DNA from: Candidatus Anstonellaceae archaeon
GTDB lineage: Archaea; Micrarchaeota; Micrarchaeia; Anstonellales; Anstonellaceae
Length of the DNA: 64,000 nucleotides
Assembly: GCA_038891035.1 (NCBI GenBank)
Contig: JAWAEW010000006.1
Coordinates: forward strand, 2,221-66,220
Direction of reading: 5' to 3'
Shown here in pieces: positions 4,509 to 59,644 of this stretch. The notes under the pieces were generated by a model. That model was not told the origin of the DNA, ran no database searches, and saw only the letters and a list, made by a program, of their open reading frames with translations. The position numbers and the translations under genes are program-made. Numbering within the stretch: position 1 is the first letter of the stretch; each line of letters starts with the position of its first letter.

Positions 4509-4617
4509 GCAGGGATGGCGGAGCCAGGTTTAACGCGCCAGACTCAAGATCTGCCTTATGGCAATAAGCAATCTGGTGACTTTAGGTCATCGGGAGTTCA
4601 AATCTCCCTCCCTGCAT
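4509..4617 (+). tRNA. tRNA-Leu (anticodon CAA) with ~22-nt intron adjacent to the anticodon loop
   Basis: Acceptor stem GCAGGGA/TCCCTGC, D-arm GCGGAGCCAGGTTTAACGC, anticodon stem CCAGA/TCTGG with loop CTCAAGA, long variable arm TGACTTTAGGTCA (class II tRNA), T-arm GGGAGTTCAAATCTCCC; extra CCTTATGGCAATAAGCAATCTG between anticodon loop and 3' anticodon stem consistent with archaeal bulge-helix-bulge intron. Confidence 0.7.
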
Positions 4618-24592: not shown

Positions 24593-25435
24593 ATGGACGA
24601 AGTTGAATTTGGGCCTGCAGGCATACCCATTCAAACTCCTGCTCCAGCAGGCACTGCAGAAGGGATAGCATACTGCAGGAAGCTTGGATTGGGAGCTATG
24701 GAGGTGGAATTCGTACATGGTGTGAGGATGTTAAAAGAAAAGGCAGAGGAAGCCCACAAAGCAGCAATCAAAAGCAATGTCCGGCTCTCTTGCCATGCAC
24801 CGTATTACATCAACTGTTGTGCAAAAGAGCAACACAAAGTAGAGGCAAGCATCAGATATATTGTTTCTACTGCCCAGGCTGCTTTCTGGCTTGGAGCTTC
24901 GCCTATCGTTATACACAGCGGCCATTATATGGGCAGGCCTGCGCAGGAGTGCCGCAAGCAGGTCATTGCTACCTATCAAAGATGCTTGGAGGAGATGGAG
25001 TCGCTTGGGATAAAGGGTGTGGCGCTTGGAGCTGAGCTTACTGGCAAGCCAACAGCTTATGGTTCGCTTGAAGAGATCATAGATTTGTCTGAGTATTTTG
25101 GGCAAGAGAAAGTAGTGCCTGTAATAGATTATGCTCATTACCATGCAAGGCAAGCAAGGCTGCAAACAAAAGAAGATTACTTGAAAATATTGGAAACTGT
25201 TGAAAAGAGGCTTGGATCCAAGGCTGCGAAGGATTTTCATTGCCACTTTTCAGGTATAGAATTCACTCCGAAAGGTGAAAAAAATCACCTGTCAATTTCA
25301 TCTGATTCCCCGCCTTTCAAGCCACTTGCGCAGGCTTGGAAAGAGAATGGTTGGAAAGGGAGGGTGATTTGCGAATCCCCTCTTCTTGAAAAGGACGCCA
25401 TAGTGCTCAAAGAGATGTATCAGAAGGCAAGGTAG
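24593..25435 (+). CDS. nfo: endonuclease IV (AP endonuclease family 2)
   Basis: 'SCHAPYYIN' and 'IVIHSGHY' metal-binding motifs of Nfo TIM barrel. Confidence 0.7.
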   Translation: MDEVEFGPAGIPIQTPAPAGTAEGIAYCRKLGLGAMEVEFVHGVRMLKEKAEEAHKAAIKSNVRLSCHAPYYINCCAKEQHKVEASIRYIVSTAQAAFWLGASPIVIHSGHYMGRPAQECRKQVIATYQRCLEEMESLGIKGVALGAELTGKPTAYGSLEEIIDLSEYFGQEKVVPVIDYAHYHARQARLQTKEDYLKILETVEKRLGSKAAKDFHCHFSGIEFTPKGEKNHLSISSDSPPFKPLAQAWKENGWKGRVICESPLLEKDAIVLKEMYQKAR

Positions 25436-37388: not shown

Positions 37389-40300
37389 TTATAACTGTGG
37401 CTCATTTGCCTTTGGAAGCTGCTTTTTTTCCTTCTCCTTTCTTGAGCCTTCAAAAAATATCCAAGCAGCCAAGAGGATGAAAATGACTGATGCCAGTCCA
37501 AGGCCTATCGCTTTTATATCCAATTGTGGCTTTCTAGAGAGAATTGCATTTGCTGTTCGGATGGCTTTTTCGGAGGAGACTAACGAGTCAGCATAAAGCC
37601 CTGCTTCAAAAAACTCTTCTGATTTTGAAAGCTCTTGCTTCAATTGAACTACTTCGTCTTCCCTGGCAGATCCGCTTGCCTCCTCAACTGCAAGCTGTGC
37701 TACTTGCAGAGATGACTGTGCTGAAGATTTTAGCTGAAGCAGTGCCTTGTCAATCGTCTCCTCAAGTTGCAAGATTTCCTGCAAGGAAAGATTCACCTCT
37801 GAGAGGACTTTGAATGGATCTTTCTGCTTTGCAGAGATTCTTTTTTGGGCTGCATCCAATTTCTCTTGTGCATCGGAAGGCATGATGGAAAGTTTGCGCT
37901 TTGTTTGCGAGGAAAGAGAAGAATATTGTTGGGCATACTGCAAAAGTTTTTCTTCTATTGCGCTTTTGCGCTTTGTAAATTCGGCTTTCAAAACTTCAGC
38001 CTCTTCTGCTGCAGCTTGCAGTTTTAACTGCTCAATTTTTTCTGAATTTTCTATCAGCACTGCTGCAAGGGCCGCTCGCTCAAAGGATGAAAGAAAATCA
38101 CCTTTTGTATAAAGCACGAATGCTTCGCTTATTTGCTCTTGGGCCTGTGCTGGAGGACTTTTCATGGAAGATAGCGCCTGTGCAGTAGAAGAAGCTGTTT
38201 TTGATGCAAGGGTTGCAATTGATGAAGTAAATTGGTTGTATGATTTGCGAAGAGTTGATACTGCTTCACCTGCTTTGCCTTGGTCAAACAATAGCTGGGC
38301 CTGGTTTTTGGCATCAGACAATGCAAAAATAAGCGAGGACAGCTGTGCGGCCTTAGAAGTTGCATTTGCTGAAAGTAGTCTGTTTATAGACTCGTTAGCA
38401 ATAGATAGAGCTTGTGCTATTTTGGCGCTTTCACTTTCAAATTCAAAATGCATTGGGATTTCGATGGATCGGGGCATGAGTAAAAGAAGTGAGAGGGCCT
38501 CTTCGGTCTTGTTTTGCTGTAAAAGAAGCTTTGCCTGAGAAAGAATTGTCTGTAGGCTGCTTTTGTTGGAAAAGGTTGTCTGAAGCTCTGCTTGCAGCAA
38601 AGCCTCATCTGCAGCTGAAGCAAGACTGTTTATAGTGAAAGTTGCAAGGAATTGTAAGCTTTGGCTGCTTTGTGGTAATTCAAATGAAAAGCTTGCTTGG
38701 GTATTTCCTCCAAAAGAGACAAAATTCTGTTTTGAAATTTTATGCGTGCCGATTGGAACAATTGAGAAATTAGAGGCGCTAAACGGCTCGTGAAGGAGGA
38801 CGGTTGCCTCTTCACAGCCAATGGCAATGTCACGCACTTCAACCACATATGAAATTTTTGCTGCGGTGCTGCTTTTTTCAAATGAACTTTCCTTTTTTAT
38901 GACTTTGAAAGGCTCGAGCAGATAGTACTTTATAGTAAGCAAGTGTTGTCCTGCAGGGACTCTTTCTATTTTGCCATAAATTTGTGGATGTGGCACATTT
39001 ACAGACTCAAGCCTATAGGAAGTTCCTGAAAAGTGGGCGTATGCCTCTTTGGAAGGGCCAGCTGTGCTTTCTTGGATGAAAAGAACGGGTAGAAAAGAGG
39101 ATGCAGAAAAGCTTATTGAAAGCTCGATTTCTGCCTCTTGTGGAAATGCTTTCTTGCATTTTTGAAAAGATGAGGTCTTTTTTGTTGGAGAATACTCTTT
39201 TTCGAAACGGAAGAAAAATGACTGTTGCGGCGAGACGGAAGGGACCACTATAGTGGTTTGACCGTCCTTGTAAAATGCATCAAGTAAGGTACCTTCTGTT
39301 GCTTCTGAGGAGTAAAGCGGTATGCTGGTTTTGGCTGAAAAAGAAATTGGAGCTGTTGATGAGAAGTTAGACGGGTTTGAAGTAAGTAGTGCTATCTGGG
39401 CTTTTTGGGTTTGTCCAAGCACAGGGGGCGGGATTAGCTCTAATGGTTTGACATTTTGTGAAAGCATAAAAGAAAGGAAATCCGGTATTCTGTTTTGTTT
39501 TTTTGCCTTCAACTTGGTCAATTCAGCTTGGATTTCTTTGAGTTTTCCTGCGGCTTTTTCGAACTTACAGTTGCAGCCATCAAAGTATAAACCAATTGAA
39601 TCTATTTCTTGCAACGCAAATGCGTCCTGCTGCCTCAAAACAGCAGCATCCTGAAGCAAGCGGCAGTAATCTTCTTCTATATGACTGTAGTGCGCCTCAA
39701 GTAACAAAAGAACCTCGTTTTTTTGCTCATAAAGTAGTTTAAGTAGTTTGTCGTGAAGTTCTTCTTTTGCTGTTAAAAGGAGGGAGGACTTGAAAAGACC
39801 TTCCAGCTCTCTCAGCTGCTCCTTATAGTAAGAAACATCCAATCCGTCTTTTTCTGCCGCATTTAGTAAGTCTTTAAGCTGGGTGAATGCTTGCCTAACT
39901 GTATTGCTGGTGTCTGCAATCTGGCTGCTTTCGGCAAGCAAAATGGCTCTTGATGCGGATTCGACTGCAGATGCGTAGGCCTTGTATTTTTTGCCCAAGG
40001 TCTGTTCAAGAGATGCCTGGGCGTATGCCTTCTTTGCTTCTTCCAGAGCTTTTAATGACTGAAAAGAAAGGCTAGAGGCTTCAAGAGAGCTTACTGAAAA
40101 GTTGATTTTTGATTCTGCCTCTGAAATTGCCTTTTCTGCAATCTTTTTTTCTTCATCTACAGCAGCAACTGCAGCTGAATGGACTTTGGAAAGTGAAAGG
40201 ATTGCGTTCGCAGCTATTGCTTCGGAATCTTTTGCTGACTTTATGGCAATTGCAAGGTAATCTTTCATTTTTGATGATTTTGCCTTTTGAGCCTCTTGAT

Positions 40301-41408
40301 ACATTTGCTTTGCCTTTTCATACTGGGCCTCGGCTTGAATCAGCCCGGCTGCGACTCCCGAAAATTCTGGGCCGACAACCATTTTATCTGCTGCAAAAGC
40401 AGGCTCTCCGATTAGAACAATTTCTTCCTTTTTGAGCTCATTAATTTTTGCTGAAAGCTGCTGCAGTGAAGCTTCTGCTGCAAACTCTGTATTGAGATAT
40501 TCAGACTCCATTTCTTTTTTTGCTTGCGACAGTTCCTTGTAAATTTTGAGGAGAGACCATACTGCAGAATATTCTCCATCACCTGCAGTAATCTGAAGAT
40601 AGGATCCGAAGCTGATGTTTGAAAAATCAGGCATATGTGGCTTGGATGCAAAGTATTCAACTATAGCATCTGAAGATTTTTTCTGGCGTTGGCAGAAGTT
40701 TGAAAGAGAGGTGGATTTGGACTTTGCATGAAGGAAAGGATCTTTTGCTGCTCCAGAGTACTTTGGACTGCCTGCTCCAGCATGCTCCAGCTCGTCCAGA
40801 AGACTTTGGGCTAGAAAGGCTGCTTCTAAGGCTGCGGCATTTGCATTTTCATATGCATCAGCGGCTTTGCTGAGTGTGGCTGAGTAATAAATTGGGAAGT
40901 AGAATGAATAAACGGATACATCTGCAAGCCGTATAGCTTTGTAAGCCAAAGCTGCCTCAAAAAGAAATGGAAAGGCTGGAAGGTAAATAAAAGTAAATGA
41001 AAAGAGTGCGATGTTTTCCAAATTGTATTCCACTTCTTTTAATGCATCTTTTGCACTTTTCCAGTAATTGTAAGAAATTGCGTACGCCTCTTTTGCATCT
41101 GCGATTGCCTGAGAAGCCGCCTCCATCTTTACTTTTACTTTTTCAACTTCGCGCGAGTTTTCCAAGGAAAGAGAAGAGCGCAGCTTTTCCCATCCCACCA
41201 ACGAAACATTTGATATCTCTAGCGTTTTTGTAGAATTAAAAAACTCAAGCGAATAGAACTTTAGTCCGCCGAAGTCATAAATGTAAGGGTTTGAGTTAAT
41301 ATATGAAGAAAGAGTCCAAAACCTTTCAAGCGGTGATGGGTTTATGCACTCTGTCAGGCTGGCAAATGAAATGCAAGAAAGGAAAATGAAAAGCCAAGCC
41401 CATTTCAT
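37389..41408 (-). CDS. giant (about 1340 aa) secreted Ala-rich coiled-coil surface protein with C-terminal TM anchor
   Basis: N-term MKWAWLFIFLSCISFASL signal peptide; >1000 residues of Ala/Leu/Glu/Lys/Ser-rich predicted coiled coil with beta-rich central region; C-term 'AIGLGLASVIFILLAAWIFFEGSRKEKEKKQLPK'. Confidence 0.6.
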   Translation of the reverse strand: MKWAWLFIFLSCISFASLTECINPSPLERFWTLSSYINSNPYIYDFGGLKFYSLEFFNSTKTLEISNVSLVGWEKLRSSLSLENSREVEKVKVKMEAASQAIADAKEAYAISYNYWKSAKDALKEVEYNLENIALFSFTFIYLPAFPFLFEAALAYKAIRLADVSVYSFYFPIYYSATLSKAADAYENANAAALEAAFLAQSLLDELEHAGAGSPKYSGAAKDPFLHAKSKSTSLSNFCQRQKKSSDAIVEYFASKPHMPDFSNISFGSYLQITAGDGEYSAVWSLLKIYKELSQAKKEMESEYLNTEFAAEASLQQLSAKINELKKEEIVLIGEPAFAADKMVVGPEFSGVAAGLIQAEAQYEKAKQMYQEAQKAKSSKMKDYLAIAIKSAKDSEAIAANAILSLSKVHSAAVAAVDEEKKIAEKAISEAESKINFSVSSLEASSLSFQSLKALEEAKKAYAQASLEQTLGKKYKAYASAVESASRAILLAESSQIADTSNTVRQAFTQLKDLLNAAEKDGLDVSYYKEQLRELEGLFKSSLLLTAKEELHDKLLKLLYEQKNEVLLLLEAHYSHIEEDYCRLLQDAAVLRQQDAFALQEIDSIGLYFDGCNCKFEKAAGKLKEIQAELTKLKAKKQNRIPDFLSFMLSQNVKPLELIPPPVLGQTQKAQIALLTSNPSNFSSTAPISFSAKTSIPLYSSEATEGTLLDAFYKDGQTTIVVPSVSPQQSFFFRFEKEYSPTKKTSSFQKCKKAFPQEAEIELSISFSASSFLPVLFIQESTAGPSKEAYAHFSGTSYRLESVNVPHPQIYGKIERVPAGQHLLTIKYYLLEPFKVIKKESSFEKSSTAAKISYVVEVRDIAIGCEEATVLLHEPFSASNFSIVPIGTHKISKQNFVSFGGNTQASFSFELPQSSQSLQFLATFTINSLASAADEALLQAELQTTFSNKSSLQTILSQAKLLLQQNKTEEALSLLLLMPRSIEIPMHFEFESESAKIAQALSIANESINRLLSANATSKAAQLSSLIFALSDAKNQAQLLFDQGKAGEAVSTLRKSYNQFTSSIATLASKTASSTAQALSSMKSPPAQAQEQISEAFVLYTKGDFLSSFERAALAAVLIENSEKIEQLKLQAAAEEAEVLKAEFTKRKSAIEEKLLQYAQQYSSLSSQTKRKLSIMPSDAQEKLDAAQKRISAKQKDPFKVLSEVNLSLQEILQLEETIDKALLQLKSSAQSSLQVAQLAVEEASGSAREDEVVQLKQELSKSEEFFEAGLYADSLVSSEKAIRTANAILSRKPQLDIKAIGLGLASVIFILLAAWIFFEGSRKEKEKKQLPKANEPQL

Positions 41409-41422
41409 ATTAAATTCGCCGA

Positions 41423-42055
41423 TCATACAAGCGGAGAGAGGATGCGCACATCTACTTTTCCGCCCGTTTTCTCTTCTACAGCCAGCTTGAATTTTTCTGG
41501 GTCTGCTTTAAGTTCTTTCAGATAGTTGTAGTGGATTGGGATTACGATTTTTGGCATTATTGCTGCCGCTGCTTGGGCAGCTTCAATCTCATTCATAGTG
41601 TAAGTTCCACCTATTGGCAAAAGCGCAATGTCGCATTTATAGCTTGACATTTCAGGAATGAAGTCTGTGTCACCTGCAAAATACACGGATGCCGATTTGA
41701 ACCTTACGATATAGCCTGCTCCTGCACCTTTTGGATGGAAAGGTTTGTTTATGTTGTATGCATGAACAGCTTCGATTGTTGCGTTTCCCACATTTTCTTT
41801 TTGGCCTATTTCAATTACCCTGCACGGGAGCTTGCATCCATGCCCTATCAGAACTGTGCTTGGTTTAGTGATGGATGGCGCTTGAACACAGTGATCAAAA
41901 TGGCCGTGGGAGTAAAGAATGACATCCGCAGGCTTAGCTCCTTTTGGAAGGACAAACGGGTCAATGTATATGGCCATGCCTTCTGCTTCAATCAAAACAG
42001 ATGCATGACCAAGCCAAGTAATCTTAACACCTGAAAAAGAGGTGCTGCTTGCCAT
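41423..42055 (-). CDS. MBL-fold metal-dependent hydrolase
   Basis: 'ILYSHGHFDHC' metal-binding motif; 210 aa. Confidence 0.7.
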   Translation of the reverse strand: MASSTSFSGVKITWLGHASVLIEAEGMAIYIDPFVLPKGAKPADVILYSHGHFDHCVQAPSITKPSTVLIGHGCKLPCRVIEIGQKENVGNATIEAVHAYNINKPFHPKGAGAGYIVRFKSASVYFAGDTDFIPEMSSYKCDIALLPIGGTYTMNEIEAAQAAAAIMPKIVIPIHYNYLKELKADPEKFKLAVEEKTGGKVDVRILSPLV

Positions 42056-42124: not shown

Positions 42125-43351
42125 ATGACAGAAGAGATACTTTATGACGCAATTGTGGTTGGTGGTGGGCCTGCCGGCTCAACTGCCGCAGCCTTTTTGT
42201 CAAGGAAAGGCAGGAAAGTGCTTTTGCTTGAAAAGGAGGCCTGGCCGCGCAACAAAACTTGTGGGGATGCAATCTCTGGAAAATCAGTTGGGGTTTTGCG
42301 AGAACTAGGTCTGACTGAAGAGCTTGAAAAGGCAGACCATGGAGAAGTGACCGGCTTAACTTTTTCATCCCCTAACGGTACTGTGGTGACCATACCTTTC
42401 AAAGGAAGCGATGGGCAAATAGCCAAAGGGTATGTTTGCAGAAGAATGGTTTATGACCACATTCTTTGGAATTGTGCAAAGAGTACTTGCGATGCATATG
42501 ATGGGACAGCAGTTGTGGGAGTTATAAAAAATAATGGAAAGATTGTTGGCGTAAAAGCGAAGGATAAAAGTGGCAGGGAAATGGAATTCCAAGGAAAGAT
42601 AATTATTGGAGCAGATGGTGTTTCTTCATTGATTGCAAGGGAAATACGTGGAAGTGAAGTAGATCCTCAGCATACATGCATAGCCTATCGGGCTTACTAC
42701 AGCGGGATAACAGGCATGAACTCGACTTTGGAGATACATTTCGTAAAGTCAATAATGCCTGGCTATTTCTGGATATTCCCGCTTGAAAAAGGTCTTGCAA
42801 ATGTTGGGGTCGGGATGGTAATGAGCGATATGAAGAAAGGGAATGTGAACTTGCATCAGGCAATGTTAGATATTATCCAGAAAAACCCACTTTTCAAGGA
42901 GAGGTTCGCGACTGCAACACAGGCTTCGCCCATAAGTGCATGGTCCTTGCCTTTTGGCTCAAAAAGAAGAAAAGTAAGCGGCGAGGGCGTGCTTTTGGTG
43001 GGCGATGCTGCAGGCTTGGTAGATCCTTTTTCTGGGGAAGGTATAGGAAATGCAATGACTTCGGGTAAAATTGCAGCAGCAATTGCTGACGAGGCGCTTT
43101 CAAAAGGTGATACCAGCGCAGAAGCGCTGGCAAAATATGATCAAGCTCTTTGGAATGAGATAGGTAATGAGCTGCAAACAAGCTATGCCATGCAGAAGCT
43201 TGGGAGGATTGAGTGGCTTTTGAATTTTGTGGTCAACAAGGCTGCAACAAGCCCGAAAGCACGAGAAGCAATTGCTGGCACATTTTCAAATGAGGAAGCA
43301 AAAAGAGACTATATGTCTCCGCTTTTTTACCTTCGCTTGCTATTCCTTTGA
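42125..43351 (+). CDS. geranylgeranyl reductase family FAD-dependent oxidoreductase (ether-lipid saturation)
   Basis: FAD motif 'YDAIVVGGGPAGSTAA', 'CGDAIS', 'GDAAG' motif 'LLVGDAAGLVDPFSGEGI'. Confidence 0.85.
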   Translation: MTEEILYDAIVVGGGPAGSTAAAFLSRKGRKVLLLEKEAWPRNKTCGDAISGKSVGVLRELGLTEELEKADHGEVTGLTFSSPNGTVVTIPFKGSDGQIAKGYVCRRMVYDHILWNCAKSTCDAYDGTAVVGVIKNNGKIVGVKAKDKSGREMEFQGKIIIGADGVSSLIAREIRGSEVDPQHTCIAYRAYYSGITGMNSTLEIHFVKSIMPGYFWIFPLEKGLANVGVGMVMSDMKKGNVNLHQAMLDIIQKNPLFKERFATATQASPISAWSLPFGSKRRKVSGEGVLLVGDAAGLVDPFSGEGIGNAMTSGKIAAAIADEALSKGDTSAEALAKYDQALWNEIGNELQTSYAMQKLGRIEWLLNFVVNKAATSPKAREAIAGTFSNEEAKRDYMSPLFYLRLLFL

Positions 43352-44296
43352 GGCGGGTTTCTTCTCTTTCTTTTCTATTATTGCAATTTGGTCAAGGGTA
43401 ACCGTGTCCTCGTAATTGCCCATATATTTTGAAAGCTGCTTTTTGCGGAGACGCTCGTTTTCTTCCTTTACCCTTTGCTTGAGTTGCTCCAACCTTTTTT
43501 GCTGCTCTTGTTTTCTTCTTTCCTGAGCCTCCTTTCGCTCAGCAAGCACTTCTGCATATTTTTGGTCGCATGCCTTGCGCACGGAAGCAAGCTCGTGCTC
43601 AAGCGCCTTTATTTCTGCGACTATCTCTTTTAGCATTCGCCGCTGCTCGTGGAATTTATTTCGAAGCTCATCCACTTCCTTGTTTTTTGCAATTTGCTCA
43701 TTGAGTTCCTTTATTTTCTTTATCATTTCTTTCTCTTTTTTGGGAGTGTACGCTTCTGTTGCTATTGCAAATTCAAGCCTTTCGACTTCGGCGATCAGCC
43801 TTGGGGTTTTACTTCCGCCTTTGACTGAAATTAGGCTTTTGATTTGCGCTATTTCCTTTCTGCATGTGGTAGCCTGTTGGTTCTTGGCTTTCAGCTGTTG
43901 AATGATTTGCTTTCTTTTTTGTACAAGTGTGTCCAGTTCTTGCTCCTTTTGGGTTCTTGGCCGCTTAGGCTTTGTAGAAGGCTGCGACTGCTGCTGTGGA
44001 CTTGGTGGGAGCTTAGCAATCTCTCTAAGCCCTTGTGGAAGGTCTGAAACACTTGGTGTCTGATTTTCTGTCTGGTCCAAAAAATTACCTTTTGATAAAT
44101 TATTTTGATGTTTTATTATCTTTTGTTGTTTTTCGTGTTCATTTATATAGAAAGATTTATATATTAGACTCCTGCAAAATCTAACAGGAAATGCCCGTCT
44201 TCTGTTCTGTCTGACGACAGAAAACTGGTCGCCTTGCCTGCGCGAGGAGCGCAGGCCTACTTTTATTATAACTTCTTTGCCTGTAACAATAGCCAC
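43340..44296 (-). CDS. coiled-coil protein (hypothetical); N-terminal ~70 codons probably not translated
   Basis: C-terminal 220 residues are K/E/R/Q-rich heptad coiled coil; upstream part of ORF overlaps hairpins and TATA-like AT-rich DNA (44140-44170), in-frame TTG at 44080 is a candidate start. Confidence 0.4.
   Translation of the reverse strand: MAIVTGKEVIIKVGLRSSRRQGDQFSVVRQNRRRAFPVRFCRSLIYKSFYINEHEKQQKIIKHQNNLSKGNFLDQTENQTPSVSDLPQGLREIAKLPPSPQQQSQPSTKPKRPRTQKEQELDTLVQKRKQIIQQLKAKNQQATTCRKEIAQIKSLISVKGGSKTPRLIAEVERLEFAIATEAYTPKKEKEMIKKIKELNEQIAKNKEVDELRNKFHEQRRMLKEIVAEIKALEHELASVRKACDQKYAEVLAERKEAQERRKQEQQKRLEQLKQRVKEENERLRKKQLSKYMGNYEDTVTLDQIAIIEKKEKKPASKE
44205..44256. promoter_or_regulatory. 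two adjacent perfect hairpins in 340-bp intergenic region
   Basis: TTCTGTC-TGAC-GACAGAA (44205-44222) and GCCTGCGC-GAGGA-GCGCAGGC (44236-44256) followed by T-rich CTACTTTTATT. Confidence 0.4.
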
Positions 44297-44440
44297 TCCC
44301 TAATTTGTGCTATCAAAAGCAGGCAGATAATTGCTGCCAGCCGAACTGTCTTATCCTGGCTTTCAAGCACCAAGAAAATGCAAAATGCGGCAGGGAGAAG
44401 CAGGAACATTCTCCCAGCAAAAATTTTTTTTATATCCATT

Positions 44441-45484
44441 TCAAATCATCTTTAGGGTCATATCTATCATCCTGTTTGAAAAGCCCCATTCGTTGTCATA
44501 CCAGGCAAGAGTCTTTGCTTGCTTGCCTATCACTTTTGTTGAAAGCGCATCAAAAATCGAGCTTGCTGGATTGTGGACTATATCTTGCGATACTATTGGG
44601 TCCTCGGTATATTCTAAAATGCCTTTCATCTTGCCTTCTGCTGCTTTTTTGACTGCATTGTTTATTTCTTCTGCTGTAGCTTCTTTCTTGAGAATGCAAG
44701 TTAGGTCGTTTACTGAGCCCGTCGGCACTGGTACACGCAGCGCAATTCCGTCCATCTTGCCTTTTAGTTTCGGCAGCACTTCACCTATTGCTTTGGCTGC
44801 CCCTGTTGAAGTTGGAATAATGTTTATTGCGCCTGCTCTTGCTCTGCGGAAGTCTTTGTGATAAGCGTCCAGTATCATCTGGTCGTTGGTGTATGCATGA
44901 CAAGTAGTCATAAATCCGCTTTCAATCCCGAATGCATCATCTAATACTTTTGCAACAGGAGCAAGACAGTTTGTGGTGCACGAACCAATTGATACGATTT
45001 TATGCTTATTTTTGTCATACATTTTGTCGTTTACTCCTATCACGATGGTTGCATCTGCTTCCCCGCCCTTACAAGGAGCGGAGATCAGCACTTTCTTTGC
45101 GCCGGCTTGAAGATGTTTGGATGCTCCTGCTCGATCTGTAAATGCGCCTGTGCATTCTAAAACTACATCTACTTCCATCGCTTTCCAGTCAAGTGTGGAT
45201 GGGTCTCTGGAGGAAACAAGTGGGATTTCATAGCCTTCTATCGTGAGTGTTGCCACGTGGCCGGGCACCTTGGGCTTGCCTGAAAGCGGTTCTCCTTTTA
45301 CAGAGCCTGCAAATTTTCCTTGAGTGGAGTCATATTTGAAAAGATGTGCTGCTAGGCGCGGATCATGAGTATCATTAATTGCGACTATGTCAAATGCTTT
45401 CCCTACCAATCCGCGCTCGAATGCTGCGCGGACGACCAACTTGCCAATTCTTCCAAAACCATTCACTGCAATTTTTGGAGCCAT
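44441..45484 (-). CDS. gap: glyceraldehyde-3-phosphate dehydrogenase, type I (bacterial/eukaryotic type)
   Basis: 'VNGFGRIGK', active site 'SCTTNCLAP', C-terminal 'WYDNEWGFS' are type I GapA hallmarks (archaeal type II lacks them). Confidence 0.85.
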   Translation of the reverse strand: MAPKIAVNGFGRIGKLVVRAAFERGLVGKAFDIVAINDTHDPRLAAHLFKYDSTQGKFAGSVKGEPLSGKPKVPGHVATLTIEGYEIPLVSSRDPSTLDWKAMEVDVVLECTGAFTDRAGASKHLQAGAKKVLISAPCKGGEADATIVIGVNDKMYDKNKHKIVSIGSCTTNCLAPVAKVLDDAFGIESGFMTTCHAYTNDQMILDAYHKDFRRARAGAINIIPTSTGAAKAIGEVLPKLKGKMDGIALRVPVPTGSVNDLTCILKKEATAEEINNAVKKAAEGKMKGILEYTEDPIVSQDIVHNPASSIFDALSTKVIGKQAKTLAWYDNEWGFSNRMIDMTLKMI

Positions 45485-45546
45485 CAAACACACCTCTTTC
45501 ACTACACACTCAAGCTAATTAATTAATCCTTGCGTAAAATAGTGCG

Positions 45547-47949
45547 ATGGAGATTGTGACAAGAAGGGCAATGCTTTTAGATGCGGATTATACGATAGTT
45601 GAAGGCAGGACTGTTGTTAGGCTGTTGATGAAAGGAAAACGTTTTTTTCGGCTTTATGACTATTATTTGCCTTATTTTTACTTGGATGCCCCAAAAAATG
45701 CTGAAGAGCTGATAAGAAAGGTTCGCGTTCAAAATGAAGGAAGACAAGTCACTCCAGTAAAACTTGAATGGGTTAAAAAAAGCGTTTTTGGCCAGGAGCG
45801 TGACATCTGGAAAGTGTACTGCGAGAGGCCTTCGGATGTGCCGAAAATAAGCAAAGCACTGCCTTATCCTTCTTATGAAAACGCAATTCCATTCGGAAGG
45901 AGATATTTGATTGATAAGGGGCTCTCTCCATTTACTACACTAGTTTACAAAAGGAAGGGGAAGTTTCTCATTGAGATAAAGAAAATTCTTGACAGAAAGG
46001 TCCCGCTTAGGACCATGTCTTTTGACATAGAAACCTACAATCCGCAGGGAACTCCACGGCCCGACCAAGACGAAGTGATTATGATAAGCTATGAAATTGG
46101 GCATACGGGGGAAAGAAAGGTAATCACCAGCAAAGACGTCAAAAGAGATTTTGCAATCGTATGCAAGGATGAAAGGCAGATGATTGAAAAGTTTCTTCAA
46201 GTGATCAGGGAAAATGACATTGAAGTGCTGTTTGGTTACAACAGCACTGTGTTTGATTTGCCATATCTTAAGGCAAGAGCAGATGCTAACGGATTGAATT
46301 TTGGGATTGGACGGGATGGTGGACCTTTTAGGATGAGAAAGCATGGGATAAGGAATGTTGCAAAAATCGTAGGCAGGATACATGTGGATCTTTATCCACT
46401 TGTCCGATTTATGGGTTTTATAGGAGCATTCAAGGTGAGCAAATATAGCTTGGAAAATGCGTATGAAGAACTAACTGGAAAAAAGAAGTTGATGGTTCAG
46501 AAACTGGATATTTGGAAGATGTGGGAGGACGAAAATCTTGTAGGCAAGCTTGCAGACTATTCGCTTTTTGATGCGCAGGCAACCATGGAGATAGGTAAGA
46601 TTTTGCTTCCACTGGAAATAGAAATGAGTAATTTGACTCGACTGCCTCTTTTTGACACAGTAAATGCAACGGCTGGCCAGCTTGTCGAATCTTTGTTGAT
46701 GCACAAAAGCACACAGAATAATGCAATAATTCCTAACAAGCCTGAGGATGCAGTTGCGCATGAAAGAGAGCTTGGTCCAATAAAGGGGGCTTTTGTCAAA
46801 ATCCCGCAGCCCGGGATTTATGAGAATCTAGTAGTGTTTGACTTTAGAGGTCTTTACCCTTCTATTATCACCTCACACAATATTGACCCTTTTACCTTGA
46901 ATCCACCAAGCTCGGTTCCGGACTCTGACTGCTATATTGCACCGAATGGAAGTCGCTTTTTGAAGAGCCCGAAAGGACTTATTCCTATGGTGCTTGAGGA
47001 ATTGATAGAGATGAGAAGCAAGCTCAAAAAGCGGTTGAAAGAGATTCAAAAAGACACACCGGAATACGAAATGCTTTTTGCACGTGTGCAGTCGCTAAAA
47101 ATACTTGCAAATTCATATTATGGATATCTGGCTTATCCGCGCTCAAGATGGTATTCCAGAGAATGTGGAGAGGCAGTGACGGCCTGGGGAAGGCATTACA
47201 TTCAAGATACTATAAGAAAAGCAACGGAAGCGGGTTTCGAAGTGCTATACAGTGATACTGACTCTGTTTTTCTTTTGCTTGGGAAAAGAATGAGAGAGGA
47301 TGCTCTTTCCTTTATGGAAAGCATCAATAGGCAGTTGCCTAAGGATATGGAATTGGAGCTTGAGGGATTTTATCCGAGGGGGCTTTTTGTAACTAAGAAA
47401 AATGCAGAAGGCGAAGGAGCCAAGAAAAAATATGCTTTAATAGGGGAGGATGGAAGGATAAAAATACGTGGCTTTGAGCTTGTGAGACGCGATTGGTCGA
47501 ATATAGCAAAGACAACACAAAAAAGAGTGCTTGAGGCAATTTTGAAGCATGGTAGCAAGGAAATGGCTGTTAAGATTGTGAAAGAGACGATCGAACAGCT
47601 GAAAAAAGGAAATGTTCCGATCGATGATCTGGTAATTTATACACAAATACGTAAAGACCCTCGGAAATACGATGTTAAATCTCCTGAGCTTTCTGCAGCA
47701 CAAAAGGCAATAGCTGCAGGCATTCCGATAGAAAAGGGGAGTGTAATTGGATATGTGATTACAAGAAGAGGGACGAGCATCTCGGAGAAAGCAACCCTTG
47801 CAGAGCTTGCAACAGATTATGATCCAAACTATTATATACAAAACCAGGTGCTTCCTGCAGTAATGAAGATATTGCAGGAGCTAGGATACAGCGAGGATGA
47901 TTTGAAATTTGGCGGGAAGCAGACCGGCCTCTCCTCTTTCTTAGAATAA
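45547..47949 (+). CDS. polB: DNA polymerase, family B
   Basis: exo motifs 'FDIET' and 'YNSTVFDLPYL', polymerase motifs 'SYYGY' region and 'YSDTDSVFL'; 800 aa, no intein. Confidence 0.9.
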   Translation: MEIVTRRAMLLDADYTIVEGRTVVRLLMKGKRFFRLYDYYLPYFYLDAPKNAEELIRKVRVQNEGRQVTPVKLEWVKKSVFGQERDIWKVYCERPSDVPKISKALPYPSYENAIPFGRRYLIDKGLSPFTTLVYKRKGKFLIEIKKILDRKVPLRTMSFDIETYNPQGTPRPDQDEVIMISYEIGHTGERKVITSKDVKRDFAIVCKDERQMIEKFLQVIRENDIEVLFGYNSTVFDLPYLKARADANGLNFGIGRDGGPFRMRKHGIRNVAKIVGRIHVDLYPLVRFMGFIGAFKVSKYSLENAYEELTGKKKLMVQKLDIWKMWEDENLVGKLADYSLFDAQATMEIGKILLPLEIEMSNLTRLPLFDTVNATAGQLVESLLMHKSTQNNAIIPNKPEDAVAHERELGPIKGAFVKIPQPGIYENLVVFDFRGLYPSIITSHNIDPFTLNPPSSVPDSDCYIAPNGSRFLKSPKGLIPMVLEELIEMRSKLKKRLKEIQKDTPEYEMLFARVQSLKILANSYYGYLAYPRSRWYSRECGEAVTAWGRHYIQDTIRKATEAGFEVLYSDTDSVFLLLGKRMREDALSFMESINRQLPKDMELELEGFYPRGLFVTKKNAEGEGAKKKYALIGEDGRIKIRGFELVRRDWSNIAKTTQKRVLEAILKHGSKEMAVKIVKETIEQLKKGNVPIDDLVIYTQIRKDPRKYDVKSPELSAAQKAIAAGIPIEKGSVIGYVITRRGTSISEKATLAELATDYDPNYYIQNQVLPAVMKILQELGYSEDDLKFGGKQTGLSSFLE

Positions 47950-52243: not shown

Positions 52244-53524
52244 TCAGCTTTTCAACTCATAGTAAATTGGAAGCAAATCCGCTACTGGGGCTGGAAGATT
52301 TTCTGCACCGACAAGAGGCACTGCATATTCTGAGAATTTTTTGATTTCAAGAAGGCAGCCTGAGTAAGTGATGAAATCTTTGGGCATTTCACGCTTACCT
52401 GTGCCTACTAGTTGCAATGGGAGGAGTACTGTTGATGTGTCTGAGCCTGGTGCAGTCAGTGCTACGCTGCCTGCCCCAAAACCTTGGATTGTATAGCGGA
52501 CGGCTTCCCGCCCGACTGTCCAAGCATCTAGCGCATCTTGGTTTGAAACCAAAGCAGGAAATGATCTTTGTGGATATCCTAGTGTGGTTGAGCGGACGTC
52601 GGTTTTGAGTGTAGATTTTACCAAATTGACAAGGAAATCTCCTAGAGAAGTCCCTCTGCTTAGGCTGATTCCACCGAAATTGTCTCCTATTACTGTGTCT
52701 CCTTTGTTTTCAAGAACGTATTTCAAAAGTGGGACTCTTTTTTTTGCTTCAGAAGAAACCGTCGTTATGCCTATGCCTTCAGAAACTACTACTAATGCTC
52801 TGCCAAATTTTTCGAATATTTCAGAAACTTTACCAGTAAAGTTATTCACAAAGTACTGAATGCTGAAGTATTCATGTTCTGGAAGGAAAAATGCGTGTGG
52901 GCCGCTTTTTTCATCGTGCTTTGCAAGCGAGGCAGAGGCCGCAAGATAACCTGCATCTTTACCCATGCAAACTACGATCTGCACGCCCCCTATTGAGCGA
53001 TTATCTGCCTCGATTCCTTGGACCACGTGGGCAACGTAAAGTGCTGCACTTCCAAAACCAGGGGTATGGTGATGGCCATTTAAGTCATTGTCAATCGTCT
53101 TTGCAACATGAAAAGTTGAAATCTCATAATTGCATGCGTTAGCAGCCACTTGCAATTGTAAGCAAACACTTGCAGTGTCATCTCCTCCTATCATGTAAAA
53201 GTAGCGTATATCATTTTTCTTCAGAAGCTCAAGCAGCCTTTCTGGCTCGCCCTTGGCCTCATTAAGTTTTCTTCTTGCAGTACCTGAAACGGCGCCTGCT
53301 TGGTTTGCAATTTTGTGTAAAAGAGCGTCGGGCTGGCGTGACAAGTCGTACACTTTTGGAGGGCATTCATCCAAAAGACCTCGAAGGCCAAAGGGAGGAG
53401 AATAAATTCTTTTTACACCCGACTTTTTCAAGTTCAAAACGAGCGAAGAAAAAGTCCTATTCACGACACGGGAAGGGCCACCGCCGAAAGCAACCAGCGC
53501 TCCGCCACTTTCAAGCTGCTTCAT
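52244..53524 (-). CDS. pfp: pyrophosphate-dependent 6-phosphofructokinase (PfkA family)
   Basis: 'MIGGDDTASV' (Asp at the GGDG position) and 'AKTIDNDL' (Lys at the PGTIDND Gly position) are the PPi-specificity determinants; preferred start MKQLESGGALVAFGGG. Confidence 0.75.
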   Translation of the reverse strand: MKQLESGGALVAFGGGPSRVVNRTFSSLVLNLKKSGVKRIYSPPFGLRGLLDECPPKVYDLSRQPDALLHKIANQAGAVSGTARRKLNEAKGEPERLLELLKKNDIRYFYMIGGDDTASVCLQLQVAANACNYEISTFHVAKTIDNDLNGHHHTPGFGSAALYVAHVVQGIEADNRSIGGVQIVVCMGKDAGYLAASASLAKHDEKSGPHAFFLPEHEYFSIQYFVNNFTGKVSEIFEKFGRALVVVSEGIGITTVSSEAKKRVPLLKYVLENKGDTVIGDNFGGISLSRGTSLGDFLVNLVKSTLKTDVRSTTLGYPQRSFPALVSNQDALDAWTVGREAVRYTIQGFGAGSVALTAPGSDTSTVLLPLQLVGTGKREMPKDFITYSGCLLEIKKFSEYAVPLVGAENLPAPVADLLPIYYELKS

Positions 53525-58087: not shown

Positions 58088-58827
58088 AGATCGGATTAAT
58101 CGGCTTTGGAGTGATAGGAAGCAGAATAGGAAAAGCGTTCAAGCGAGACATAAAATGGGTAGTGGATATTAGAGATGTTTCTGAGAAGATGCACAATGCA
58201 GGAGTGTTCTGTCCTCTTCTTCCAACTATTCCGCGCAGATGTGGTGGGGTGGATTTGGTGGTGGAGGCAGCAAGCCAGGAAGCAGTTGCCCAAGTGGCAC
58301 ACTGCCTGCGCTATGCAGATTTGATGATAATGTCTGTTGGGGCGCTGTCGGATGAGAGAGTCTTGGCGTCGCTTGTGGCAAATGCAAAAAAATATGGGCA
58401 TAAGGTGTTTATTCCTTCAGGTGCAATTGGTGGTTTGGACGCAGTTTCTGCTGTTGCAGAAAGTGCAAAGGAAGTGATACTTGAGACCCTCAAGCCGCCT
58501 TCTTCTCTTGGAAGATCAGATAAAAAAAGGAAGGTGATATTCGAAGGGACGGCAAGAGATGCCTGCAGGCTTTTCCCGCAAAATATCAATGTATCTGCCA
58601 CTCTTGCCCTTGCAGGGATAGGATTTGAAAGGACAAAGGTGAGGATAATAAGTGATCCTGCTCAAAAGAGAAATTTGCACAAAATCACAATAATATCTGA
58701 TGCTAGCAGGATGGTTTTTGAGTTTGACAATTACCCATCTGCACAAAATCCAAAAACATCCGAACTTGCTGCACTTTCTGCTGTAGAGAGGATAAAAAAA
58801 ATAAACAAAATTTTCCAAATTGGCTGA
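58084..58827 (+). CDS. nadX: L-aspartate dehydrogenase
   Basis: 'MKIGLIGFGVIG' Rossmann start, DUF108 central domain, 247 aa typical of NadX. Confidence 0.7.
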   Translation: MKIGLIGFGVIGSRIGKAFKRDIKWVVDIRDVSEKMHNAGVFCPLLPTIPRRCGGVDLVVEAASQEAVAQVAHCLRYADLMIMSVGALSDERVLASLVANAKKYGHKVFIPSGAIGGLDAVSAVAESAKEVILETLKPPSSLGRSDKKRKVIFEGTARDACRLFPQNINVSATLALAGIGFERTKVRIISDPAQKRNLHKITIISDASRMVFEFDNYPSAQNPKTSELAALSAVERIKKINKIFQIG

Positions 58828-59644
58828 AGGTGATTTTCTGATAATTGGAGCTATGAATAATCCTTGGGAAGAGACTGCTGCTCAGATAAGAGAATTTGGA
58901 GAAATGGGGTTTGATTTTTTCGAGCTGACAGTTGAGCCGCCGTATGCTACACCTGATAAGTTGAAAGACTTAAAAAGAGAGATAGACGATGCCTTGTCCT
59001 CGTACAATTTTGGTGTGATTGCACATTGTCCTTGGTATTTTTCTGTTGCGCACCCTTATTCTTCTGTCCAAAAGGCGATTAATGCTGAGTTTAAGAGGGC
59101 GTTTGAGGCAGCAGCTTTGTTTGGGGCAAAAAAGATCACTGTCCATACAGAATGGATGCCTCCGCATCTTCAAGAAAGGCAGCTAATGGTAGCAAAAACT
59201 ATTGAAACGTTGGAATGGCTAGCTGGAGTTGCCCAAGAGCAGGGAATGAGACTTTTGGTTGAAAACATAAACTCTTTTTCCTTTTGCATACGAGATTTTG
59301 AAGTGGTATTTTCTAAAGTAGATGCAGGACTGACACTTGACGTAGGGCATGCATGTATTGAGGGAGAATTCGAAAATTACATCAAAAAACTCAGAAAAAA
59401 AGTAGAGCATATTCATCTGCATGATAACGACAAAAGATCTGACCTACATCTTCCACTTGGAGCAGGCAGGATGGGAATTGCAGGAGTTGTAAGGCGGCTC
59501 AAAGAGTTTTACAGCGGAACCATAACACTAGAGGTTCATTCAGAAGATGCTGAATACTTGAAGTTTAGCAGAGACAAATTGGAAATTCTTTGGTATGGGA
59601 GAAAAAAGCATTTGGAAAATAAAAAGTACATGGGATTGGGTTAG
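58820..59644 (+). CDS. sugar phosphate isomerase/epimerase (xylose-isomerase-like TIM barrel)
   Basis: 'LLVENINS', 'LTLDVGHA', 'HIHLHDND' metal-binding pattern. Confidence 0.65.
   Translation: MAEGDFLIIGAMNNPWEETAAQIREFGEMGFDFFELTVEPPYATPDKLKDLKREIDDALSSYNFGVIAHCPWYFSVAHPYSSVQKAINAEFKRAFEAAALFGAKKITVHTEWMPPHLQERQLMVAKTIETLEWLAGVAQEQGMRLLVENINSFSFCIRDFEVVFSKVDAGLTLDVGHACIEGEFENYIKKLRKKVEHIHLHDNDKRSDLHLPLGAGRMGIAGVVRRLKEFYSGTITLEVHSEDAEYLKFSRDKLEILWYGRKKHLENKKYMGLG

What the first reader, a model, noticed from the sequence alone, without database searches (positions are those of the whole stretch)
44441..45484. Bacterial-type (type I) GAPDH in an archaeal gene neighbourhood
The SCTTNCLAP active site and the WYDNEWG C-terminus are diagnostic of type I GapA/GapC. 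Canonical archaeal GAPDH is type II. The gene sits beside the archaeal PolB and lipid genes, which implies horizontal acquisition or a lineage with bacterial-like glycolysis.
Basis: established knowledge. Interest (0 to 1): 0.55.

Follow-up and report, generated by a model that had tools for sequence, protein, structure and literature searches.

The report
Type I GAPDH in a Micrarchaeota genome
The gene is a real, intact bacterial-type (type I) glyceraldehyde-3-phosphate dehydrogenase in a DPANN (Micrarchaeota, Anstonellaceae-like) archaeal genome, but this enzyme type is shared and vertically inherited across that phylum and is already annotated and published, so the finding is correct but ordinary.

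Summary
A 347-aa ORF on the minus strand (44441-45484) has the SCTTNCLAP and WYDNEWG motifs. It scores 425 bits on the type I GAPDH equivalog (cutoff 367) and only 23 bits on the type II model.

The 64-kb window is clearly archaeal: PolB, Orc1/Cdc6, GGGP synthase, geranylgeranyl reductase, Pus10, GatD/E, archaeal RecJ and an intron-bearing tRNA.

It is neither a chimera nor a recent transfer:
- GC3 and codon usage are typical of the window.
- The PolB/gapA/DUF7121/GGR/MBL arrangement recurs in six independent assemblies.
- GAPDH identity falls in step with PolB and SRP54 across those genomes.
- pN/pS against the closest relative is about 0.05.

The closest homologues (94% down to about 60%) are nearly all labelled Micrarchaeota or Anstonellaceae. 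A 65-sequence clade has 100% bootstrap support. The deeper backbone is unresolved, so no donor can be named.

A 2025 reconciliation study already infers gapA, pfkA and pgk in the last common ancestor of Micrarchaeota. The most likely role is NAD+-dependent, ATP-yielding GAP oxidation in a fermentative Embden-Meyerhof pathway. Verdict: already known, low interest.

The parts
44441..45484 (-). gapA: type I (bacterial-type) phosphorylating GAPDH, 347 aa. It has the NGFGRIG Rossmann motif, Asp38 in AINDT, catalytic Cys169 in SCTTNC, His196 in TTCHAYTNDQ, and WYDNEWG near the C-terminus.
   Evidence: ORF and motifs. Pfam Gp_dh_N plus Gp_dh_C. TIGR01534 at 425 bits, above the 367 cutoff. Best solved relatives are 1vc2, 2ep7, 1cer, 1hdg and 1gd1; I recall these as Thermus, Aquifex, Thermotoga and Geobacillus GAPDHs, but the tool gives no organism (E 1e-105 to 1e-111). 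pN 0.030 against pS 0.637 versus L081.
45263..45295 (-). An 11-residue insertion (EPLSGKPKVPG, residues 64-74) in the NAD-binding domain. Within the 13-sequence alignment only the closest relatives share it (P0001 and P0002; P0003 has a longer version at the same site).
   Evidence: Alignments to the solved structures show the gap. The 13-sequence alignment and the segment-length census of 192 sequences show its distribution; 8 more distant unnamed sequences also have a lengthened segment here.
45485..45546 (.). A 62-bp divergent intergenic region between gapA and polB. An AT-rich near-palindrome, ATTAATTAATTA (45516-45527), is a candidate shared TATA element. A GAGGTG Shine-Dalgarno-like box (45491-45496) lies 6 nt before the gapA ATG.
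   Evidence: Sequence. Both elements keep their position in L081 and L083, and in degenerate form in L084 and L085. Promoter function is inferred, not shown.
44266..44439 (-). A conserved 57-aa ORF starting 1 nt after the gapA stop codon. It has two hydrophobic stretches, so I read it as a small membrane hairpin protein. It is possibly co-transcribed or translationally coupled with gapA.
   Evidence: ORF. Called at the same place in L081, L083, L085 and L086. 22 invariant residues across 5 sequences. pN 0.07 against pS 0.74 versus L081. Absent in L084. No function is known.
52244..53524 (-). A PfkA-family phosphofructokinase, most similar to the PPi-dependent subfamily PRK14072. It is a second bacterial-type Embden-Meyerhof enzyme in the same neighbourhood. 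The mechanical ORF extends to 53617 from a TTG; relatives are called at 426 aa.
   Evidence: NCBIfam PRK14072 at 275.7 bits against a cutoff of 273. PF00365 PFK genes sit at the syntenic position in L081 and L083. Codon usage is typical.

Best explanation
This is a functional NAD+-dependent, phosphorylating type I GAPDH (GapA, EC 1.2.1.12) that is a resident, vertically inherited gene of a Micrarchaeota (DPANN; Anstonellaceae-like) genome. It converts glyceraldehyde-3-phosphate, Pi and NAD+ to 1,3-bisphosphoglycerate and NADH through the Cys169 thiohemiacetal/thioester mechanism, with His196 as the base. Together with phosphoglycerate kinase this gives substrate-level ATP in a fermentative Embden-Meyerhof pathway that also uses a PfkA-type phosphofructokinase. 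The enzyme type entered the lineage long ago, at or before the Micrarchaeota common ancestor according to a published reconciliation. It has since co-evolved with the genome. It is not a recent transfer or an assembly artefact. SHOWN here: family membership, intact catalytic residues, purifying selection, host-like composition, conserved synteny, and a lineage-specific clade. INFERRED: NAD+ preference (from Asp38), the catabolic direction, the pairing with PGK and LDH (from the literature on related genomes), and a bacterial ultimate origin.
For: Type I membership: TIGR01534 scores 425 bits (cutoff 367) and type II scores 23 bits. Both Pfam domains are found. The best solved structures are all annotated as GAPDH; I recall the top ones as bacterial. 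The catalytic and binding residues are invariant in a 13-sequence alignment: C169, H196, T199, R213-R216 and R250. Selection: pN 0.030 against pS 0.637 versus L081. Host-like composition: GC3 is 0.404 against 0.390 +/- 0.036 for window genes, and codon-usage deviation ranks 27th of 50. Not chimeric: the PolB/gapA/DUF7121/GGR/MBL/~1340-aa order recurs in GCA_038887295.1, a Logan assembly, GCA_026413765.1, GCA_026413965.1, GCA_026414185.1 and JGI 3300017989. At 63% identity gapA is still near DUF7121, PolB, peptidase A24 and Pus10. Window 34402-55481 forms one collinear 21-kb alignment with L081 at 79.9% nucleotide identity. Co-divergence: GAPDH identity runs 93/87/81/78/74/63% against PolB 91/84/74/70/70/51% across the same genomes. 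Lineage clade: every named hit from 94% to 70% identity is Micrarchaeota, Anstonellaceae or 'uncultured archaeon'. The 65-sequence clade has 200/200 bootstraps. [quoted passage not shown] The EMP pathway is reported in Anstonellales and LDH in Anstonellaceae (PMC8561730). In haloarchaea the bacterial-type gapI is the catabolic enzyme and type II the gluconeogenic one (PMC10817205 and PMC12525153).
Against: No enzymology or expression data exist for this protein or any Micrarchaeota orthologue. Cofactor preference and direction rest on one residue and on analogy. No PGK, TIM, enolase or LDH gene lies in the 64-kb window, so the pathway context comes from published genomes, not from this sequence. 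I could not test whether the genome also carries type II GAPDH, GAPN or GAPOR. The union of the 65-sequence clade with the deeper Micrarchaeia sequences has only 48% bootstrap. One sequence labelled Micrarchaeia (P0101) groups elsewhere in the NJ tree, so a single acquisition is not proven by my tree. A bacterial origin is the conventional view but is not resolved here, since backbone nodes have 5% support or less.
Confidence: 0.85

Rival explanations
1. This organism or its genus acquired the gene recently from a bacterium.
For: The enzyme type is the one typical of bacteria. Bacterial sequences appear at about 58-61% identity.
Against: GC3 and codon usage cannot be told apart from neighbouring genes. 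All named hits at 70% identity or more are Micrarchaeota, and the 65-member clade has 100% bootstrap. Synteny with PolB holds down to 63% identity. Divergence tracks PolB and SRP54.
Confidence: 0.02
2. Assembly or binning artefact: a bacterial fragment was joined to an archaeal contig.
For: None beyond the bacterial-type family assignment.
Against: The same junctions (polB, 62-86 bp spacer, gapA, small ORF, DUF7121, GGR) occur in six independently assembled records from different samples. The window gives one uninterrupted 21-kb collinear alignment with L081. There is no compositional step.
Confidence: 0.01
3. The protein is a type I paralogue with a different role: erythrose-4-phosphate dehydrogenase (as some relatives are labelled), an ArsJ-associated GAPDH, or a GapB-like NADP-dependent gluconeogenic enzyme.
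For: NCBI labels three clade members 'D-erythrose-4-phosphate dehydrogenase [uncultured archaeon]' (P0033, P0062, P0080). Those models do give high partial scores. If no type II enzyme exists in the genome, this enzyme must also serve gluconeogenesis.
Against: The Epd models score 349 and 344 bits against cutoffs of 539 and 530. The ArsJ-type model scores 362 against 450. Only the general type I GAPDH equivalog passes its cutoff. No arsJ-like gene is adjacent. Asp38 in AINDT is invariant; in characterised type I enzymes this Asp disfavours the 2'-phosphate of NADP (established knowledge, not tested here). In deeper Micrarchaeia the gene is adjacent to pgk, which fits a GAPDH/PGK pair.
Confidence: 0.07
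4. Micrarchaeota did not take the gene directly from bacteria. It belongs to a type I lineage that has long circulated among archaea (Micrarchaeota, Brockarchaeota, Thermoproteota/Thermofilaceae, Hydrothermarchaeales and others).
For: Type I GAPDHs at 52-57% identity occur in at least six other archaeal groups. The loop after the first helix has the same length and a similar GK-x-F-[DE]-[IV]-V motif in Micrarchaeota and in the Brockarchaeota, Thermoproteota and Thermofilaceae sequences.
Against: In the NJ tree these archaeal sequences do not group with Micrarchaeota, and backbone support is essentially nil. Loop length varies widely among proteobacteria too, from 10 to 12 residues. Woesearchaeota and Bathyarchaeota sequences lack the motif.
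Confidence: 0.12

Closest known systems
Type I GAPDH of Micrarchaeota / Candidatus Anstonellaceae MAGs (for example P0001 from GCA_038887295.1 and P0002 from GCA_026413765.1); gapA inferred at the Micrarchaeota LCA in PMC12892359
   Same: 87-94% amino-acid identity, the same 347-aa length including the 11-residue insertion, and the same gene order on both sides.
   Different: The window is a different species. It shares about 80% nucleotide identity with the closest public genome over 21 kb.
Bacterial GapA structures: 1vc2, 2ep7, 1cer, 1hdg, 1gd1 (organism names Thermus thermophilus, Aquifex aeolicus, Thermus aquaticus, Thermotoga maritima and Geobacillus stearothermophilus are from my memory; the tool lists only the molecule name)
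   Same: Full-length alignment (E 1e-105 to 1e-111). Identical catalytic SCTTN-Cys, His, the TNDQ and RRARA segments, and the WYDNEWG tail.
   Different: The window protein has extra loops: LVGKA (about residues 25-29), the 11-residue insertion at 64-74, and a 2-residue KGGEAD insertion. It also has TTCH instead of TTVH.
Haloarchaeal gapI (bacterial-type catabolic GAPDH, usually in a gapI-pgk operon; Tastensen & Schonheit 2018, as cited in PMC10817205 and PMC12525153)
   Same: It is a type I enzyme in an archaeon, interpreted as giving the extra ATP of the GAPDH/PGK route. It is an ancient, lineage-wide acquisition rather than a strain-level one.
   Different: It is a different archaeal phylum and, as far as the data go, a separate clade. 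No haloarchaeal sequence appears among the 120 listed hits or the 80 loci. There is no adjacent pgk in this window, although pgk is adjacent in deeper Micrarchaeia. Coexistence with a type II enzyme was not tested here.
Archaeal type II GAPDH (PRK04207; anabolic, NADP(H)-preferring)
   Same: It carries out the same overall reaction and belongs to the same superfamily.
   Different: It scores only 23 bits against a cutoff of 185, so this protein is not a member.

Membership tests
Type I GAPDH (TIGR01534, GapA; EC 1.2.1.12) | Whole-protein score above the curated equivalog cutoff | tested here: met
   425.4 bits against a cutoff of 367.2, aligned over profile positions 1-330 of 330.
Type I GAPDH (TIGR01534, GapA; EC 1.2.1.12) | Two-domain architecture: an N-terminal NAD-binding Rossmann domain plus a C-terminal catalytic domain | tested here: met
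   PF00044 (residues 4-117) and PF02800 (residues 174-329).
Type I GAPDH (TIGR01534, GapA; EC 1.2.1.12) | Catalytic Cys in S-C-T-T-N, the catalytic His, and the WYDNEWG C-terminal motif | tested here: met
   S168-C169-T170-T171-N172, H196 and W328-G334. All are invariant across 13 aligned relatives, except N172, which is 90% or more conserved.
Type I GAPDH (TIGR01534, GapA; EC 1.2.1.12) | NAD+-dependent phosphorylating activity on glyceraldehyde-3-phosphate | not testable with these tools
   There are only sequence proxies: the NGFGRIG motif and Asp38 at the end of beta-2. An enzyme assay is needed.
Type II (archaeal) GAPDH (PRK04207) | Score above the curated cutoff | tested here: not met
   23.3 bits against a cutoff of 185.
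Erythrose-4-phosphate dehydrogenase (Epd; PRK13535 / TIGR01532) | Score above the curated cutoff | tested here: not met
   349.1 against 539 and 343.8 against 530.55. The 'E4P dehydrogenase' labels on P0033, P0062 and P0080 are therefore probably over-specific annotations.
ArsJ-associated GAPDH (NF033735) | Score above the cutoff and an adjacent arsJ transporter gene | tested here: not met
   362.4 against 450. The neighbours are polB, a 57-aa ORF and a DUF7121 protein.
Haloarchaeal-style gapI-pgk operon | gapI directly linked to pgk | tested here: not met
   No PGK domain appears in any annotated ORF of the window. PGK is adjacent or near in the deeper Micrarchaeia loci L087 and L088.
Micrarchaeota gapA clade (vertical inheritance) | Groups with Micrarchaeota sequences, with conserved flanking genes and co-divergence | tested here: met
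   200/200 bootstraps for the 65-sequence clade. Synteny. Parallel decline of identity with PolB and SRP54.

The most novel reading that the evidence does not exclude
The Micrarchaeota enzyme may not be a direct bacterial import. It could be part of an old type I GAPDH lineage exchanged among archaea (Micrarchaeota, Brockarchaeota, Thermoproteota/Thermofilaceae, Hydrothermarchaeales), marked by a shared GK-x-F-[DE]-[IV]-V loop. If so, 'bacterial-type' GAPDH would be far more deeply and widely rooted in Archaea than the current view that it is almost exclusive to haloarchaea. In this family it may also work with a conserved, translationally coupled 57-aa membrane protein.
Probability: 0.12. Interest if true: 0.4.

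Novelty: already known. Interest (0 to 1): 0.13.

Why it matters
It matters little beyond confirmation. It is one more species-level example that Micrarchaeota (DPANN) run the lower Embden-Meyerhof pathway with a bacterial-type, ATP-conserving GAPDH rather than the archaeal type II, GAPN or GAPOR enzymes. This fits the published picture of a gapA/pfkA/pgk core at the root of the phylum. One point has mild wider interest: statements that archaeal gapI is 'almost exclusively' haloarchaeal (PMC10817205) are outdated once uncultured lineages are counted. Type I genes turned up here in Micrarchaeota, Woesearchaeota, Bathyarchaeota, Brockarchaeota, Thermoproteota and Hydrothermarchaeales.

Tried and rejected
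It returned only 50-59% relatives and none of the close Micrarchaeota genomes. Close genomes were reached through the look-up of encoding contigs instead.
2. The NJ tree (Kimura-corrected distances, 192 sequences, 332 columns, 200 bootstraps) resolves the Micrarchaeota clade but not the backbone. No sister group or donor can be claimed. No maximum-likelihood program was available.
3. The indel signature (a 12-residue loop) looked like a possible shared archaeal character. Loop length also varies among proteobacteria, so it is only a weak hint.
4. I searched the supplements of PMC12892359 for K00134, K00150, gapA, gap2, K00131 and K11389, to learn whether Micrarchaeota also have type II GAPDH, GAPN or GAPOR. 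There were no occurrences in the files held.
5. Default ARAGORN found no tRNA. Rfam, and ARAGORN in intron mode, found one.
6. I looked for origin-like repeats around the Orc1/Cdc6 gene. Only short, chance-level repeats turned up.
7. I considered structure prediction and fold search and did not run them. Full-length sequence similarity to solved GAPDHs at E about 1e-110 makes them uninformative.

Full report
OBSERVATION. The coordinates 44441-45484 correspond exactly to a 347-codon ORF on the minus strand, ATG to stop. Pfam finds the two GAPDH domains: Gp_dh_N at 1.9e-29 and Gp_dh_C at 1.8e-66. NCBIfam's type I GAPDH equivalog TIGR01534 scores 425.4 bits against a cutoff of 367.2, over the whole profile. 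The archaeal type II model PRK04207 reaches only 23.3 bits against a cutoff of 185. The erythrose-4-phosphate dehydrogenase and ArsJ-associated GAPDH models stay well below their cutoffs. The best matches among solved structures are the GAPDH entries 1vc2, 2ep7, 1cer, 1hdg and 1gd1 (E 1e-105 to 1e-111, full length). From memory these are from Thermus, Aquifex, Thermotoga and Geobacillus; the tool does not give organisms. A longer ORF from a GTG at 45502 is mechanically possible, but three things favour the ATG at 45484. A GAGGTG Shine-Dalgarno-like box lies 6 nt upstream. That box keeps its position in relatives. The N-termini of the 347-aa homologues begin there.

THE GENOME IS ARCHAEAL, SPECIFICALLY MICRARCHAEOTA. 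The window encodes:
- family B DNA polymerase (45547-47949) and geranylgeranyl reductase (42125-43351);
- Pus10, SRP54, an archaeal RecJ, and GatD/GatE;
- Orc1/Cdc6, an Rpo7-like subunit, a GGGP synthase (PcrB), and the SUF system;
- PheRS alpha;
- a tRNA that only Rfam and ARAGORN in intron mode detect.
The closest GAPDH homologues are labelled 'Candidatus Anstonellaceae archaeon' (94%) and 'Candidatus Micrarchaeota archaeon' (87%, 82%, 78% and lower). Labelled Micrarchaeia sequences continue down to about 59% identity. The first labelled bacterial sequences appear at about 61%. Window 34402-55481 aligns as one collinear 21-kb block with contig JAWAKW010000001.1 of GCA_038887295.1 at 79.9% nucleotide identity. 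The window therefore comes from a different species of the same group.

IS IT FOREIGN AT THIS LOCUS? No, on four counts.
- Composition. GC3 of the gene is 0.404, against a mean of 0.390 +/- 0.036 for 68 window ORFs. Its synonymous-codon deviation from the rest of the window ranks 27th of 50 genes.
- Synteny. The arrangement polB, short spacer, gapA, (57-aa ORF), DUF7121, GGR, MBL-fold protein and a ~1340-aa protein recurs in GCA_038887295.1, a Logan assembly of SRR27730019, GCA_026413765.1, GCA_026413965.1, GCA_026414185.1 and JGI metagenome 3300017989. At 63% identity (GCA_027348425.1) gapA is still close to DUF7121, polB, peptidase A24 and Pus10, with pgk nearby. At 59% identity it lies next to pgk.
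- Co-divergence. Across these genomes GAPDH identity to the window protein is 93, 87, 81, 78, 74 and 63%. PolB identity is 91, 84, 74, 70, 70 and 51%. The gene has diverged together with its host genome.
- Selection. Against the closest relative, pN is 0.030 and pS is 0.637, a pN/pS of about 0.05. With Jukes-Cantor correction dN/dS is about 0.02, but dS is near saturation.
A chimeric contig and a recent transfer are therefore both rejected.

PHYLOGENY. I aligned 192 full-length sequences: the window protein, 111 database hits, and 80 proteins extracted from named genomes. I built NJ trees with 200 bootstraps. The window protein pairs with P0001 (98%) and then P0002 (100%). A 65-sequence clade, in which every named member is Micrarchaeota, Anstonellaceae or 'uncultured archaeon', has 100% support. 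Joining it to the 28 deeper sequences, which include labelled Micrarchaeota and Micrarchaeia and loci with archaeal neighbours, has 48% support. Everything deeper has 5% support or less. The nominal neighbours are Ignavibacteriales, Anaerolineales and Zixibacteria, then an actinobacterial group, then Bathyarchaeota, Brockarchaeota, Woesearchaeota, Thermoproteota and Hydrothermarchaeales. That order means nothing at this level of support, so no donor can be named. One sequence labelled Micrarchaeia (P0101) falls with the actinobacterial group, although it shares the Micrarchaeota-type loop. The tree therefore supports a lineage-specific clade within type I. It does not show when or from whom the gene came.

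SEQUENCE FEATURES AND LIKELY FUNCTION. The residues that define the mechanism are invariant in the 13-sequence alignment. These are the nucleophile Cys169 with Ser168 and Thr170, His196, the TNDQ segment, the RRARA segment, Arg250, the NGFGRIG dinucleotide-binding motif, and Asp38 at the end of the second strand. In characterised type I enzymes that Asp favours NAD+ over NADP+. This is established knowledge applied by inference and was not tested here. Lineage-specific details:
- a 3-5 residue longer loop (LVGKA) found throughout Micrarchaeota;
- a 2-residue insertion (KGGEAD) in the shallower part of the clade;
- an 11-residue insertion (EPLSGKPKVPG, residues 64-74). In the 13-sequence alignment only P0001, P0002 and, in longer form, P0003 share it. 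The length census shows 8 more distant unnamed sequences also have a lengthened segment there.
Upstream, an AT-rich near-palindrome, ATTAATTAATTA, sits about 26 nt from the polB ATG and about 37 nt from the gapA ATG. It is conserved in relatives. I infer a shared divergent archaeal TATA region.
A PfkA-family phosphofructokinase (PRK14072-like, 275.7 bits against a cutoff of 273) lies at 52244-53524 and is syntenic in relatives. The published genome analyses report an Embden-Meyerhof pathway in Anstonellales and LDH in Anstonellaceae (PMC8561730). Putting these together, the most likely role is the catabolic, ATP-conserving GAPDH/PGK step of a fermentative glycolysis. If no type II enzyme exists in the genome, the same enzyme would also have to serve gluconeogenesis. 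I could not test that.

COMPARISON WITH WHAT IS KNOWN. The functional precedent is the haloarchaeal gapI, a bacterial-type catabolic GAPDH that is usually co-transcribed with pgk. In those organisms the archaeal gapII works in gluconeogenesis (PMC10817205 and PMC12525153, citing Tastensen & Schonheit 2018). [quoted passage not shown] NCBI already annotates the orthologues as type I GAPDH. The finding is therefore a correct recognition of an already described lineage trait.

VERDICT. Novelty: already known. Interest is low, about 0.13. Three open points remain: (i) whether these genomes also have a type II, GAPN or GAPOR enzyme; (ii) the deep origin of archaeal type I GAPDHs, including a hinted but unsupported link to the type I enzymes of TACK-group archaea (Brockarchaeota, Thermoproteota); and (iii) a conserved 57-aa membrane-protein ORF abutting the gapA stop codon.

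Noticed in passing
window 44266-44439 (-): A 57-aa ORF with two hydrophobic stretches starts 1 nt after the gapA stop codon. It is called at the same position in four related loci, with 22 invariant residues (LLLP.AF.IF..L.SQD...RL.A...L....Q.REW.L). pN is 0.07 against pS 0.74 versus L081, so it is probably a real, possibly translationally coupled small membrane protein. It is absent in L084. No function is known.
   Followed up: partly
window 45263-45295 (-), residues 64-74 of the GAPDH: An 11-residue insertion (EPLSGKPKVPG) in the NAD-binding domain. Among the named close relatives only P0001, P0002 and P0003 share it, and the top solved GAPDH structures lack it. Its structural effect is unknown.
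   Followed up: partly
window 52244-53524 (-) (mechanical ORF to 53617): A PfkA-family phosphofructokinase that just passes the PRK14072 (PPi-dependent PFK subfamily) cutoff. It is a second bacterial-type glycolytic enzyme 7 kb from gapA and is syntenic in L081 and L083. The phosphoryl donor (ATP or PPi) was not examined.
   Followed up: partly
window 4509-4616 (+): An intron-containing tRNA. Rfam scores it at 48 bits. Default ARAGORN misses it. ARAGORN in intron mode calls tRNA-Val(CAC) with a 22-nt intron, but draws a rather odd 88-base structure.
   Followed up: partly
window 37389-41426 (-): A 1345-aa ORF with no Pfam or NCBIfam hit. It is syntenic in all close relatives (1333-1359 aa) but evolves fast: 77%, 43%, 32% and 29% identity where GAPDH keeps 93-78%.
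   Followed up: no
window 45516-45527: A near-palindromic AT-rich element, ATTAATTAATTA, lies in the 62-bp spacer between the divergent polB and gapA genes, about 26 nt from the polB ATG. It is conserved in L081 and L083. It could be a bidirectional TATA element with a leaderless polB mRNA.
   Followed up: partly
window 43340-44296 (-): The mechanical 318-aa ORF over-extends a roughly 250-aa lysine- and glutamate-rich protein that looks like a coiled coil. The orthologue is a 250-aa DUF7121 protein in L081. Pfam found nothing for the extended form.
   Followed up: no
P0033, P0062, P0080 (database hits): Three members of the Micrarchaeota GAPDH clade are labelled 'D-erythrose-4-phosphate dehydrogenase [uncultured archaeon]' in NCBI/nr. 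For the window protein the Epd models fall far below their cutoffs, so these labels look like annotation errors.
   Followed up: partly
L008, L015, L072 (Brockarchaeota, Thermoproteota, Thermofilaceae GAPDH loci) compared with window residues 22-33: These archaeal type I GAPDHs share with Micrarchaeota a 12-residue loop with a G/M-K-x-F-[DE]-[IV]-V motif. The Woesearchaeota, Bathyarchaeota and most bacterial sequences examined lack it. This may hint at archaeon-to-archaeon spread, but the tree does not support it.
   Followed up: partly
P0101 (labelled Micrarchaeia, 1.3-Mb contig): This GAPDH groups with an actinobacterial-type set in the NJ tree, yet it carries the Micrarchaeota-type loop and a unique 7-residue insertion near the C-terminus. 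It is either a tree artefact or a second acquisition.
   Followed up: no
window 704-1600 (-), 24593-25435 (+), 58820-59644 (+): The window also holds a PfkB-family sugar kinase and two xylose-isomerase-like TIM-barrel (AP_endonuc_2) proteins. They may belong to the organism's sugar metabolism.
   Followed up: no
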